From Promethearchaeia archaeon (GTDB taxonomy: Archaea > Asgardarchaeota > Lokiarchaeia > Sigyniarchaeales > SOKP01): 52,545 bases of DNA. Shown here in pieces: positions 11,405 through 14,048 of the stretch (within the stretch, counting starts at the first letter, position 1; each line of letters starts with the position of its first letter). The DNA lies in the NCBI GenBank assembly GCA_029856155.1, contig JAHQWL010000026.1:1-52545 (forward strand). The letters are read 5' to 3'. Under the pieces are notes generated by a model that had not been told where the DNA came from, did not search any database, and saw only the letters and a list, made by a program, of their open reading frames with translations. The position numbers were made by a program, and so were the translations under genes.

Positions 11405-12379
11405 GTGTCTTTACTAGGAACAAATCTTAATATTTCGATTAAACAGATTGATGATTTAATACGATGCCTTAGTTTAGCAAGCTTTTTAGAAGTAGCGGGG
11501 TGGCCTAAACCAGGGAATGTTCACCGTACAAAAGATTTTGAAAATACAAAATTTGAACATTTTTTAGCGGGAATTGTGGCAATTCAGCCAACTTTTAGAG
11601 AATTTTGTTATCAAATTTTTCAAATTCCTTTTAAAAATGACGATGATTATGAAAAAATCGAATTAGGTCAATTTTTCATGAAGGCTACTAAAGAAATGAT
11701 AAATTGGCAAAGTGGAGGTAATGTGTTATTAGGACATATATTAATTTTAGCACCACTCGCCGCAGCATCCGTAATTTGTTTAAAAACACAGAAATATCAT
11801 TATAATGATTTGAGAGATAATTTAAGTAAAGTTATTGATAACAGCACTGTAAATGATACTGTAAATTTGTACAAAGCTATACGAATATGCAATCCTGGTG
11901 GTTTAGGATCTATTGAAAAATATGATATTAACAACGAAAATTCTCTCAATGATATTATTTCTGATAATATAACTCTGAAAAAAATATTTAAACTTTCAAA
12001 GAACAAGGATTTGATAAGTATGGAATATGCGACTGGTTTTACCAAAATTATAAACGAGGGGCTACCCTATTTCTTAGAAGTATTTAACCAATATAGAGAT
12101 ATAAATACTGCAACTGTTAATACATATTTAAAACTCTTATCTTTACATCCAGATACTCTTGTTATAAGAAAATCTGGAATCGATGCTGCATTATATATCT
12201 CAAAAGCAGCATCAAAAATATTAGAAAAGGGAGGTATTTCATCTGATAAAGGTTTAAGATTAATAATGGAGTTAGATAATGAACTTCAACAAAAAAGAGG
12301 AAAATATAATCCCGGTACGACAGCTGATCTTCTATCTGGAATAATATTTTGCGCTTTATTGTTTGGTTTAAGAATCTAA
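11405..12379 (+). CDS. citG: Triphosphoribosyl-dephospho-CoA synthase (CitG family)
   Basis: LEV..PKPGNVHR, DTLVIRKSG, NPGTTADL. Confidence 0.85.
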   Translation: MSLLGTNLNISIKQIDDLIRCLSLASFLEVAGWPKPGNVHRTKDFENTKFEHFLAGIVAIQPTFREFCYQIFQIPFKNDDDYEKIELGQFFMKATKEMINWQSGGNVLLGHILILAPLAAASVICLKTQKYHYNDLRDNLSKVIDNSTVNDTVNLYKAIRICNPGGLGSIEKYDINNENSLNDIISDNITLKKIFKLSKNKDLISMEYATGFTKIINEGLPYFLEVFNQYRDINTATVNTYLKLLSLHPDTLVIRKSGIDAALYISKAASKILEKGGISSDKGLRLIMELDNELQQKRGKYNPGTTADLLSGIIFCALLFGLRI

Positions 12380-12461
12380 ATGCAAAAAAATTATTTGCTA
12401 GAATGAATTTATTATCTATTATAGAAAAAGATTAATAATTTCTCTTTGGGTTATTGAGATT

Positions 12462-12842
12462 ATGGAATTCTGCGACGAATGTGGAGGAATGATGTTACCT
12501 TCAAAAGTAGATGGTATAAAAGTATTAAAATGTAAGTGTGGAGCAACTAAGCCATTTTCAGAAGAAAAGTCTGAAGCTTATAAAGTATCCACTAAAATCG
12601 AGCATTCTATAAGAGAGGAGGTAACAAATCTAGTTGAAGTTATGGACTGGAAGGATAAGAATCTAAGAAGTTCGATTAAAGATTTTAAATGTCCTCGCTG
12701 TGGATATGATAAAGCACACCTTGAGACACGTCAAACACGCAGAGCTGATGAGGGAATGACAACTTAAAATGTGCCATTTTAAGTCATGAATCACTTCATC
12801 ACCTGCTTGAAATGTGGTAAAATGAAAAAAATTGGAAGCTAA
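12462..12842 (+). CDS. tfs: Transcription factor S (TFS/RpoM), split by a 30-nt insert; 116 aa if the insert is removed
   Basis: MEFCDECG..CKC; CPRCG..QTRRADEGMT | HFITCLKCGKMKKIGS*. The downstream part is in the same frame, beyond TAA codons at 12765 and 12780. Confidence 0.88.
12761..12790 (+). other. Candidate bulge-helix-bulge (BHB) mRNA intron in tfs
   Basis: Perfect 10-bp hairpin ACTTAAAATG-TGC-CATTTTAAGT, flanking 3-nt bulges, ATGA/TCAT helix, and exon-exon stem TGATGAGG/CTTCATCA. Confidence 0.65.
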
Positions 12843-13099
12843 CCATAAAACTTACATAAAAACTTTTGCTAAATCTAAAGATGGGAAGGGATATCTTGAA
12901 GATCATCCTATAAGTTGAAAAAATTAGAAATTAATAGAAAAAACTGGATTTATATTAAATCCAATTTAAGTAAGTCAAGTATAAAGATGTCTTATTTAAA
13001 GACGTCTATCGGATTAAATAATAATAGTTCAAATTCTCTTTAATATTTGCAATTAGTTTATATAGTTTTATATATTATTAGCAAAATGGCAATGATTAG

Positions 13100-13315
13100 G
13101 AATATCCAGAATATATAATTTGTCCTATATGTCAAACTAAAATAAGTATAGATTATAATAAAAAAAAGATAGCTTACACAGAAGATATTTATAATATACA
13201 AATTAAAACTCCAGGTCTTAGAGATGCGGGTCGTAGTTCTGTAAGACCAGGGGATACATATATTCAGGTAAGTATATGTACTAATTGTAAAGGAATACTT
13301 GGAACTAGTTGGTGA
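13100..13315 (+). pseudogene. Small Zn-finger protein not in the ORF track; start region disrupted
   Basis: EYPEYIICPICQTKI...VSICTNCKGILGTSW*. It is preceded by an in-frame TAG, and the nearby ATG (13086) is out of frame. Confidence 0.55.
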
Positions 13316-13386
13316 TATATAAAAAAAATCTATTAAATTTTTTTTTCTTAAGTTTAAACTATAATTTATTTGCTTTTAGTAATTAA

Positions 13387-13719
13387 AGGAACAAAATTTC
13401 TAGAAGAAAATTTTATGGAATTGCAATAACGGAAAGAACAGTAAAACACTGGAGGTTAGTATGGAATTTATTTCATACAGATCCTAAAGTTAAAGTTGCT
13501 ACCAAGGTAAATCTTATAAAAGAATTATTAGCATTGGAAGATTGGACTTTAGAAGAAATTTATTCTAAACTTATAGGTTATAATTATGATTCCTCAAATA
13601 GTAAACATCGTTATCGATTAAGAAAAAGATTAAAAGAGTGGTTTGCTAATGATCCATTGATTCAAGGATCTAATGATATAGTAAAAAGAATTAAGGAAGT
13701 CTATGGCGTCGCAATGTAA
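13387..13719 (+). pseudogene. Start-less ~110-codon C-terminal fragment of a basic helical protein
   Basis: Frame open from 13387; TLEEIYSKLIGY...RLKEWF...IKEVY loosely parallels the C-terminus of 501-2894. Confidence 0.4.
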
Positions 13720-13748
13720 ATGAGGAGCAGACTAATAAGCTAAATTAA

Positions 13749-14048
13749 TTATTTTTGATTAAAACGTTTTCTAATTACTTCTTCTTCGATATTTTCAAGA
13801 AAAGAAATTTTAATTAATTTATCTTTAGTTTTTGAACCGGAGATAATTTGGATTTGACTTGATGATATTTTTAGTTTTCTTTTTAGAAGATTTGTTAATT
13901 CTTTATTTGCTCTATTTTGGATGGGCTTCGAGGTAAGATAAATTGTCAAAAAACTCCCATTATTAACAATAGCTTGAGTTTTAGAGTTTGTCTTAACATT
14001 CACCCTTAAAAAATAAATAGTATCAGAATGTTTTTCTAAAAAATTCAT
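13749..14048 (-). CDS. DUF167/UPF0235 family protein
   Basis: LRVNVKTNS..PIQNRANKEL..IQIISGSKTKDK. Confidence 0.85.
   Translation of the reverse strand: MNFLEKHSDTIYFLRVNVKTNSKTQAIVNNGSFLTIYLTSKPIQNRANKELTNLLKRKLKISSSQIQIISGSKTKDKLIKISFLENIEEEVIRKRFNQK

What the first reader, a model, noticed from the sequence alone, without database searches (positions are those of the whole stretch)
12746..12801. Candidate BHB (tRNA-endonuclease-type) intron in the mRNA of transcription factor TFS
Seen: tfs reads QTRRADEGMT, then 30 extra nt with two in-frame TAA codons (12765, 12780), then resumes in frame with HFITCLKCG, the missing second CxxC of the C-terminal Zn ribbon. The insert is a perfect 10-bp hairpin (12762-71/12775-84), and the flanking exons pair (12746-53 with 12794-801). 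Established: archaeal splicing endonucleases cut BHB motifs after the second nt of each 3-nt bulge, and protein-coding BHB introns are rare (cbf5 is the classic case). Inference: two registers are possible. The relaxed register (bulges 12759-61 and 12789-91, one A-G mismatch in the central helix) removes 30 nt and gives ATG ACT CAC = ADEGMTHFITC, the normal TFS spacing. The perfect ATGA/TCAT register removes 28 nt and gives a truncated frameshift product (MTITSSPA*), which could be a splicing switch or an argument against splicing. Alternatives are ribosomal bypassing between matched ATG codons exactly 30 nt apart (12756/12786, stop in a hairpin, as in T4 gene 60), or a palindromic insertion with an ATGA duplication. 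An mRNA intron in a core transcription gene of an Asgard archaeon would be notable.
Basis: partly seen in the sequence, partly recalled or inferred. Interest (0 to 1): 0.92.

Follow-up and report, generated by a model that had tools for sequence, protein, structure and literature searches.

The report
tRNA-type mini-intron in Asgard TFS paralog
A gene for a TFS-like transcription factor in an Asgard (Promethearchaeota) archaeon is split by a 30-base insert shaped like a tRNA intron; related species keep it with matching stem changes, so it is very probably cut out of the mRNA, which papers I could search report inside only one archaeal coding gene (cbf5).

Summary
The ORF at 12462 stops at TAA 12765. 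Thirty extra nt follow, with a second TAA at 12780 and a perfect 10-bp hairpin. The frame then resumes with HFITCLKCGKMKKIGS.

Most orthologs in the family are uninterrupted (..ADEGMTHFITC..). Twenty-one alleles carry a homologous insert at the same codon: 14 species genomes in 5-6 genera and 7 metagenome contigs. The 20 complete inserts are 30 nt, except one of 31 nt. The hairpin shows compensatory changes, and exon 2 is under purifying selection (pN/pS 0.125).

The fold is a bulge-helix-bulge motif. Cutting after the second nt of each bulge (12760^12791) restores the ortholog sequence exactly. The genome encodes two EndA paralogs and RtcB. Its rpo10, elf1 and uL11 genes carry similar mini-inserts.

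My best reading, at about 0.85, is an EndA/RtcB-spliced mRNA intron. The gene is a TFS paralog; a canonical TFS lies elsewhere in the genome.

Open points:
- In the window, a competing 28-nt register is about 3 kcal/mol more stable and would frameshift.

The intron is scattered on the gene tree and linked to an exon-2 haplotype, which suggests turnover by recombination. This scan has already noted the same kind of intron on other Asgard DNA and elsewhere in this genome.

The parts
12462..12760 (+). Exon 1 of the TFS-paralog gene, from ATG to the first two bases (AC) of the Thr codon. It encodes the N-terminal Zn ribbon, the linker, the first CxxC of the C-terminal ribbon and the acidic RADEG loop.
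   Evidence: ORF list and translation. Pfam Zn_ribbon_RPB9 covers residues 1-35. Zn_ribbon_TFIIS covers 75-101 and matches only profile positions 1-27 of 39.
12761..12790 (+). Predicted 30-nt bulge-helix-bulge intron in phase 2. It runs from the third nt of the 5' bulge through the hairpin and the intron strand of the central helix to the second nt of the 3' bulge. It carries in-frame TAA codons at 12765 and 12780.
   Evidence: Uninterrupted orthologs read GGN ATG ACN CAY TTY, so exactly these 30 nt are extra. A homologous insert sits at the same site in 21 alleles. The cut rule was checked on this genome's own tRNA-Ser(UGA) intron.
12791..12842 (+). Exon 2: the third base of the Thr codon, then HFITCLKCGKMKKIGS and the stop at 12840-42. 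It supplies the second CxxC of the TFIIS-type Zn ribbon.
   Evidence: Translation. The intact ortholog matches Pfam profile positions 1-36 of 39. pN/pS is 0.125 among carriers.
12746..12754 (+). 5' strand of the outer exon-exon helix h. It pairs with 12792-12801, with A12793 bulged.
   Evidence: Fold. 92-94% of cells are paired across carriers. Exon-exon duplexes are stronger in carriers than in intronless alleles.
12792..12801 (+). 3' strand of the outer exon-exon helix h.
   Evidence: Carriers of this genus use the CAC TTC ATC/ATT codons, whose C's pair with G's of GAT GAR GG.
12755..12758 (+). Exon strand of the 4-position central helix H (AAUG). It pairs with 12785-12788 (CAUG). The outermost position, A12755 with G12788, is a mismatch in this genome.
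   Evidence: The three inner pairs are invariant or G-U across carriers. The outer pair is AU 5, UA 4, CG 1, UG 1, unpaired 8.
12785..12788 (+). Intron strand of the central helix H.
12759..12761 (+). 5' three-nt bulge (A C | A). The predicted cut is after 12760.
   Evidence: Geometry, with the rule verified. Pair 12762:12784 covaries (AU 16, GC 1, GU 1, UA 1, none unpaired), which fixes this bulge.
12789..12791 (+). 3' three-nt bulge (A A | U). The predicted cut is after 12790.
   Evidence: Geometry. The third bulge nt becomes the wobble base of the Thr codon, and it gives ACN = Thr in all carriers.
12762..12784 (+). Intron hairpin h': a 10-bp stem (12762-71 with 12775-84) and a 3-nt loop (12772-74).
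   Evidence: Sequence. Four stem pairs change on both sides across carriers, while the loop and bulges vary freely.

Best explanation
Bases 12761-12790 are an archaeal bulge-helix-bulge (BHB) intron inside the coding sequence of a TFS-family paralog.

The pre-mRNA folds so that exon 1 pairs with exon 2 (outer helix). AAUG of exon 1 pairs with CAUG at the 3' end of the insert (central helix). The rest of the insert forms a 10-bp hairpin. This leaves two 3-nt bulges on opposite strands, four positions apart.

The host's two-subunit splicing endonuclease (EndA) cuts after the second nt of each bulge, at 12760|12761 and 12790|12791. RtcB then joins the exons. The result is ..GGA AUG ACU CAC UUC.. 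= ..ADEGMTHFITCLKCGKMKKIGS, a complete TFIIS-type zinc ribbon. Unspliced mRNA gives a 101-aa product that lacks the second CxxC.

Shown here: the anatomy, its conservation and covariation, selection on exon 2, and presence of the enzymes. Inferred: the cutting and joining themselves, and which of two competing registers the enzyme uses in this genus.
For: 1. Exact restoration. Most orthologs in the family are uninterrupted and read ..ADEGMTHFI(T/I)C... Removing 30 nt from the window reproduces this.

2. Recurrence. A homologous insert sits at the same codon in 14 species genomes (genera g1, g14, g16, g18, g23, and a g21 bin) and on 7 metagenome contigs, including a Loki's Castle contig.

3. 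Length. The 20 complete inserts are 30 nt, except G057 at 31 nt with an extra loop base. In G057 exon 2 is out of frame in the DNA and comes into frame only after BHB excision.

4. Structure under selection.
- 92% of cells are paired, against 31-55% when partners are slid.
- 21 cells change on both sides, and 0 of 500 shuffles reach this.
- Stem pairs 22:45, 23:44 and 24:43 switch AU/GC/UA, CG/UA and UA/AU.
- Loop and bulges vary.

5. Exon 2 of carriers has pN/pS 0.125 with pS 0.80.

6. Exon-exon complementarity is stronger in carriers: mean duplex energy -16.9 against -10.4 kcal/mol, MWU p = 2e-6, not corrected for phylogeny.

7. Machinery. The genome has two EndA paralogs and RtcB. Asgard EndA is the (alpha-beta)2 type with the L1 loop, which confers broad specificity (PMC5829648).

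8. The cut rule was verified on this genome's tRNA-Ser(UGA) 37/38 intron.

9. Same genome. rpo10 (30 nt), elf1 (31 nt) and uL11 carry similar stop-bearing mini-inserts at conserved residues. The same rule restores CCKRMIVSHVDL and FTCPECGEK. rpo10 also has a mismatched outermost H pair.

10. No second copy of this paralog exists in G000, which is 97% complete.
Against: - There is no RNA-level evidence.
- In the window the 30-nt register has an A-G mismatch in the central helix. It scores -14.5 kcal/mol, against -17.4 for the perfect 28-nt register, which would frameshift. The unconstrained MFE is neither BHB.
- On the 3' side, covariation supports both registers about equally: 15:49 paired in 11 of 19, 15:52 paired in 14 of 19.
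- A purely structural BHB scan of the genome, with or without an ORF-rescue filter, did not exceed its mirror-image control. The motif alone is therefore not rare in this 30% GC genome.
- A canonical TFS paralog is intact, so loss of this gene might be tolerated.
Confidence: 0.85

Rival explanations
1. The insert is a BHB intron, but in this genus the enzyme mainly uses the perfect ATGA/TCAT register. That register has bulges at 12760-62 and 12888-90 minus 100, i.e. 12788-90, removes 28 nt and yields a truncated frameshift product (..MTITSSPA*). This would be either wasteful mis-splicing or a switch that limits how much full-length factor is made.
For: This register is a flawless hBHBh' motif in the window and about 2.9 kcal/mol more stable than the 30-nt one. 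Pair 12755:12791 is complementary in 14 of 19 carriers, with both AU and UA.
Against: - The frameshift tail is not conserved, whereas exon 2 is under strong purifying selection in the frame reached only by the 30/31-nt excision.
- When 12762 changes, its partner 12784 changes with it (UA, GC, GU). This breaks the 28-nt register's 12759:12784 pair in G060 and G057.
- Metagenome allele L148 has GGC, which makes a C:G pair in the 30-nt register and breaks the other one.
- rpo10 in the same genome has the same kind of outer-pair mismatch, yet it is a single-copy essential gene.
Confidence: 0.08
2. The insert is an inactivating small palindromic insertion (MITE- or REP-like, or a hairpin duplication), and the gene is a pseudogene tolerated because a canonical TFS exists.
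For: The sequence is palindromic, ATGA is present on both sides in the window, most relatives lack it, and an intact TFS paralog lies at C72.
Against: - The element is single-copy in the genome at up to 6 substitutions. Exact core matches across 135 family genomes occur only at this locus.
- The flanking ATGA repeat is not conserved; other carriers have CATA or CATT.
- Both exons stay open and conserved in 21 alleles, with exon 2 pN/pS 0.125.
- Length is held at 30/31 nt, and stem changes are compensatory.
Confidence: 0.04
3. The insert is skipped by the ribosome through programmed translational bypassing, as in T4 gene 60: a stop codon in a hairpin, with take-off and landing on matched codons 30 nt apart.
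For: ATG 12756 and ATG 12786 are exactly 30 nt apart, and a stop lies inside a stable hairpin.
Against: - Hopping from ATG to ATG would give GM-NHF, not the conserved GMTHF.
- The second ATG is absent in many carriers, which read CATA or CATT there.
- No other matched codon pair is conserved.
- The motif fits the BHB geometry, and the host splices many tRNA introns.
Confidence: 0.02
4. The insert is an assembly or sequencing artefact.
For: None, beyond the fact that the window comes from a metagenome-assembled genome.
Against: The same insert occurs in 21 independently assembled genomes and contigs from different studies.
Confidence: 0.01

Closest known systems
BHB intron in the cbf5 (pseudouridine synthase) pre-mRNA of Crenarchaeota (Watanabe 2002; Yokobori 2009, PMC2738675)
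   Same: Both are protein-coding genes interrupted by a tRNA-type intron removed by the splicing endonuclease. Both are patchy among relatives, with lineage-specific loss inferred. PMC7714728 calls cbf5 the only further BHB intron reported, apart from its own Haloferax 5' UTR case.
   Different: The phylum differs (Asgard/Promethearchaeota) and so does the gene (a TFS paralog). Splicing was shown experimentally for cbf5 and is only inferred here. Turnover here is far faster: at least 9-11 state changes on the gene tree within one family.
Archaeal tRNA introns at BHB motifs, very abundant in some Asgard classes (bioRxiv 10.64898/2026.10.13.758758; Marck and Grosjean 2003 as cited there)
   Same: The motif, cut rule and enzymes are the same. 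This genome's own tRNA-Ser(UGA) intron shows the identical geometry. ARAGORN found introns in 11 of the 23 tRNA genes it detected.
   Different: The host RNA is an mRNA, so excision must also preserve the reading frame. The exon-exon helix is built from synonymous codon choices rather than from a tRNA stem.
BHB intron in the 5' UTR of Haloferax volcanii HVO_1309 mRNA (PMC7714728)
   Same: EndA processes an mRNA.
   Different: That intron lies in the untranslated leader. This one splits a zinc-ribbon domain within the coding sequence.
TFS paralogs of archaea
   Same: The protein has an N-terminal RPB9-type ribbon and a C-terminal TFIIS-type ribbon, and it sits alongside a canonical TFS.
   Different: This paralog keeps the acidic D-E loop (RADEG), so it is probably cleavage-competent rather than an inhibitor. 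Its function was not tested.

Membership tests
Archaeal BHB (EndA/RtcB-spliced) intron | [quoted passage not shown] | tested here: met
   The window has bulges at 12759-61 and 12789-91 and helix 12755-58/12785-88, with one A-G mismatch (a relaxed motif). The motif is perfect in 11 of 19 distinct homologs.
Archaeal BHB (EndA/RtcB-spliced) intron | Flanking helices: exon-exon (h) and intron-internal (h') | tested here: met
   h is 12746-54/12792-801 and h' is 12762-71/12775-84. 92-94% and 92% of cells are paired across carriers.
Archaeal BHB (EndA/RtcB-spliced) intron | Cutting after the 2nd nt of each bulge yields the functional product | tested here: met
   The 12760^12791 junction gives ACU CAC = ..GMTHF.., identical to intronless orthologs. 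The rule was checked on the genome's own tRNA-Ser intron and on the rpo10 and elf1 inserts.
Archaeal BHB (EndA/RtcB-spliced) intron | Structure maintained by compensatory change | tested here: met
   Five pairs change on both sides, in 21 cells, and 0 of 500 shuffles reach this. Slid controls give 31-55% paired, against 92%.
Archaeal BHB (EndA/RtcB-spliced) intron | Host encodes the splicing endonuclease and RtcB ligase | tested here: met
   PF01974 matches at C13 and C52, which are two paralogs. PF01139 matches at C83.
Archaeal BHB (EndA/RtcB-spliced) intron | Excision and exon ligation observed in RNA (spliced junction, circular intron) | not testable with these tools
No spliced-form protein of this species is in the protein collection.
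TFS / TFIIS-type transcript cleavage factor | N-terminal RPB9-type and C-terminal TFIIS-type zinc ribbons with an acidic D-E hairpin | tested here: met
   For the intact ortholog, PF02150 has E = 8e-6 and PF01096 has E = 1.4e-14. The RADEG loop is present. The window's exon 1 alone covers only profile positions 1-27 of 39.
TFS / TFIIS-type transcript cleavage factor | Stimulates RNA polymerase transcript cleavage | not testable with these tools
   This is a biochemical property. A more canonical TFS (..SSDEPSTHFF..WRE) is also present at C72.
Programmed translational bypass (T4 gene 60 type) | Conserved matched take-off and landing codons that give the conserved protein | tested here: not met
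   The second ATG is absent in many carriers, and hopping from ATG to ATG would drop the conserved Thr.
MITE / repetitive palindromic element | Multiple copies in the genome and a conserved target-site duplication | tested here: not met
   There is one copy at up to 6 mismatches. Exact core matches in the family occur only at this locus. The flanking repeat is not conserved.

The most novel reading that the evidence does not exclude
The mini-intron is a presence/absence polymorphism that moves between Promethearchaeota species, or is erased, by homologous recombination together with its flanking exon. This would be homing-like turnover without a homing endonuclease. In this genus, its two competing BHB registers (30 nt productive, 28 nt frameshifting) would make endonuclease splicing a tunable on/off switch for a transcription-factor paralog.
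Probability: 0.12. Interest if true: 0.9.

Novelty: new member of a known kind. Interest (0 to 1): 0.74.

Why it matters
In the papers I could search, endonuclease-type splicing inside an archaeal coding sequence is documented for one gene only, cbf5 in Crenarchaeota. One 5' UTR case in Haloferax is also reported (PMC7714728, PMC2738675).

[quoted passage not shown] The same genome shows similar inserts in rpo10, elf1 and uL11.

- It means gene callers truncate such genes. Public databases hold this one as 101-103-aa 'TFIIS-type domain' fragments.
- It gives a clean test case for intron gain and loss, because intron-plus and intron-minus alleles coexist among close species.
- It raises the question of whether protein-mediated mRNA splicing was already routine in the archaeal lineage from which eukaryotes arose.

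Tried and rejected
- Spliced-transcript assemblies: a search through the protein collection found only truncated forms or proteins at 87% identity or less.
- Genome-wide structural BHB scans at three stringencies, and an ORF-rescue filter, gave counts no higher than the mirror-image control. They are uninformative in this 30% GC genome and are neither support nor refutation.
- Copies of the intron elsewhere: none in the genome. The family-wide pattern search gave only this locus at 0 mismatches. A recurrent 1-mismatch hit (C26:71877) has no open frame on the matched strand, so nothing marks it as an intron.
- Rfam: no family at 11500-14000.
- MFE folding does not return the BHB for most carriers, because alternative exon-exon pairings compete. 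I therefore relied on pair counts, not on MFE.
- Considered and rejected: stop-codon readthrough or tolerance of a 10-aa insertion (1-3 stops in every carrier, and a 31-nt variant); matched-ATG bypass; MITE; assembly artefact.

Full report
**What is there**

The window's + strand carries an ORF from ATG 12462 that reads ..CPRCGYDKAHLETRQTRRADEGMTT and stops at TAA 12765. The same frame has a second TAA at 12780. It then continues ..HFITCLKCGKMKKIGS to the stop at 12840. Bases 12762-71 and 12775-84 are a perfect 10-bp inverted repeat around a 3-nt loop. The 78 nt from 12735 to 12812 fold at -25.9 kcal/mol, against -12.7 +/- 2.7 for shuffles (z = -4.8).

**What the gene is**

Pfam finds an RPB9-type N-terminal ribbon and a TFIIS-type C-terminal ribbon. 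In the window's exon 1 the TFIIS match stops at profile position 27 of 39. In an uninterrupted ortholog it runs to position 36. The genome (G000: 4.10 Mb, 104 contigs, 97% complete, 30% GC) has a second, more canonical TFS at C72 (..SSDEPSTHFFKCTNCRYTWRE), which is 32% identical. The interrupted gene is therefore a TFS paralog, with the ending ..KIGS, and it is conserved through the family.

Titles of close relatives name Promethearchaeota (Lokiarchaeota-type) MAGs, so the 'Asgard' call holds. Synteny is conserved: CitG lies upstream and a PF02594 gene lies downstream.

**Relatives**

In the family, 123 of 135 species genomes have the paralog, and most read ..ADEGMTHFI(T/I)C.. without interruption. 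Fourteen genomes carry an insert at exactly this codon:
- g1: G000, G022, G074, G078, G084
- g16: all four genomes
- g14: one genome
- g18: one genome
- g23: two of seven genomes
- g21: one bin, whose carrier copy nests inside g1 on the gene tree and which also holds an intact copy

Outside the family, orthologs in the class are uninterrupted.

The protein collection holds further truncated 101-103-aa forms. I fetched seven of these contigs, including one from the Loki's Castle metagenome, and all carry the insert, although one is cut by its contig end. The inserts are clearly homologous. The 20 complete ones are 30 nt long, except in G057, where an extra loop base makes 31 nt. In G057 exon 2 is out of frame in the DNA, and only excision at the BHB sites restores HFIICLRCGKMRKIGS.

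**Structure**

On the 20-sequence alignment A2, the 30-nt BHB model has these elements:
- outer helix: columns 6-14 with 53-62
- central helix: columns 15-18 with 46-49
- bulges: columns 19-21 and 50-52
- hairpin: columns 22-31 with 36-45

Under this model 92% of cells are paired, against 31-55% when partners are slid. Twenty-one cells change on both sides, and 0 of 500 shuffles reach that (the 14-sequence version is). Hairpin pairs switch AU/GC/GU/UA (22:45), CG/UA (23:44) and UA/AU (24:43) in different genera. The loop and bulges vary freely.

I checked the cut rule on this genome's own tRNA-Ser(UGA). There the four exon bases 32-35 pair with the intron's 3' end, and each cut falls after the second bulge base. 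Applied to the window, the rule gives cuts at 12760|12761 and 12790|12791. The spliced sequence ..AUG ACU CAC.. is the ortholog sequence.

**Function is maintained**

Among carriers, exon 2 has pS 0.80 and pN 0.10, a ratio of 0.125. None of the carrier genomes except the g21 bin shows a second copy of this paralog at E <= 1e-20.

Exon-exon complementarity is stronger in carriers than in intronless alleles: mean duplex energy -16.9 against -10.4 kcal/mol, MWU p = 2e-6, not corrected for phylogeny. In g1 this comes from the CAC TTC ATC/ATT codon choices. In the other genera it comes from a GCAGAUGA/UCAUCUGC helix.

**Machinery and company**

The genome encodes two EndA paralogs and RtcB. Published work assigns Asgard archaea the (alpha-beta)2 EndA with the L1 loop, which gives broad substrate range (PMC5829648). 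ARAGORN finds only 23 tRNA genes, 11 of them with introns. This fits a preprint's report of heavily interrupted tRNA genes in some Asgard archaea.

Following leads from earlier notes of this scan, I checked three more genes in this genome. The Pfam matches to Rpo10, Elf1 and uL11 are each cut short. The DNA shows 30-, 31- and roughly 36-37-nt stop-bearing inserts at conserved residues. For the first two, the same cut rule gives CCKRMIVSHVDL and FTCPECGEK. rpo10 is single-copy and its product is an RNA polymerase subunit, so this organism must remove such inserts.

**The register problem**

In the window the productive register has an A12755-G12788 mismatch. A shifted register (ATGA/TCAT, bulges 12760-62 and 12788-90) is perfect and about 2.9 kcal/mol more stable. 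It removes 28 nt and frameshifts.

Comparative data settle the 5' side. When 12762 changes, its partner 12784 follows it (UA, GC, GU). This breaks the shifted register in G060 and G057.

The 3' side stays ambiguous. Column 15 pairs with column 49 in 11 of 19 sequences (four pair types, including a C:G in metagenome allele L148). It pairs with column 52 in 14 of 19 (two pair types).

The coding constraint requires the 30-nt cut. rpo10 carries the same kind of outer-pair mismatch. Whether some 28-nt product is also made remains open.

**Evolution**

On a maximum-likelihood tree of 56 coding sequences with the introns removed, the 14 carriers need at least 11 changes of state, and well-supported branches force at least 9. 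The window's gene is sister to an intronless gene of G005 (support 100/99).

The differences between those two genes pile up towards the 3' end: 14/240, 9/59 and 11/49 (exon 1 against exon 2, Fisher p = 0.003). By contrast, the window's exon 2 differs at only 2 of 49 sites from that of carrier G084, whose 5' part differs at 40 of 240. So the intron travels with an exon-2 haplotype. This points to recombination, either spreading the intron or erasing it. Direction cannot be told from these data.

**Rivals**

- Matched-ATG bypass fails. The second ATG is missing in many carriers, and the product would lack the conserved Thr.
- A repetitive palindromic element fails. The genome holds one copy, and exact core matches in the family occur only at this locus.
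- Readthrough fails because of the 31-nt allele and the 1-3 stops per insert.
- An assembly artefact is excluded by 21 independent assemblies.

**Limits**

I saw no RNA. Structure-only scans of the genome do not exceed a mirror-image control, so the motif alone proves little. The case rests on homology, covariation, frame logic and selection.

**Literature**

Searches for a TFS intron, or for Asgard mRNA BHB introns, found nothing. PMC7714728 states that cbf5 is the only further BHB intron reported in an mRNA, besides its own 5' UTR case. This scan itself has many unchecked notes, and some follow-ups, of the same kind of intron in other Asgard windows and elsewhere in this genome.

**Verdict**

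This is a new member of the known kind 'BHB intron in an archaeal mRNA', with unusually good comparative support and an open question about register choice.

Noticed in passing
G000:C14:57532-57681 (-), locus L144: rpo10 (RpoN) of the same genome matches Pfam positions 1-50 of 58 and then hits two stops. A 30-nt insert separates ..CCKRMIV from SHVDLIDELLKF. It has BHB geometry with a U-U mismatch in the outermost central-helix pair.
   Followed up: partly
G000:C83:75217-75372 (-), locus L145: elf1 of the same genome is split inside its first CxxC (FTCPE | CGEKSV) by a 31-nt insert containing a stop. Exon 2 is out of frame in the DNA.
   Followed up: partly
G000:C44:135900-136190 (+), locus L146: The uL11 N-terminus lies in three pieces (..KALVTGG / ASGGPPI / GPSVGPTGINI..), separated by two short stop-bearing inserts.
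   Followed up: partly
L126:540-599 and L143:1-80 (genome G091): Two contigs of one MAG end and begin exactly at the intron site: one ends ..GGAATGAC and the other starts CATTTTATAAC.. . This may reflect intron-plus and intron-minus variants coexisting in that sample and breaking the assembly.
   Followed up: no
L037 and L048 (genome G069): One bin holds both an intron-bearing copy, which nests within genus g1 on the gene tree, and an uninterrupted copy typical of its own genus. This is either bin contamination or lateral transfer.
   Followed up: no
L038 (genome G072): An otherwise intronless ortholog has a single in-frame TAA in exon 1 (..EDQKDS*KLKTK..), where relatives have Tyr. This is a nonsense mutation or a sequencing error.
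   Followed up: no
whole genome G000: ARAGORN detects only 23 tRNA genes in a 97%-complete 4.1-Mb genome, 11 of them with introns. Many tRNA genes are probably hidden by multiple or non-canonical introns.
   Followed up: no
window 11405-12379 (+) and 13749-14048 (-): The neighbours of the TFS paralog are a CitG-family gene (324 aa) upstream and a PF02594 (PF1765-like) gene downstream on the other strand. This arrangement recurs on metagenome contigs that carry the intron.
   Followed up: no
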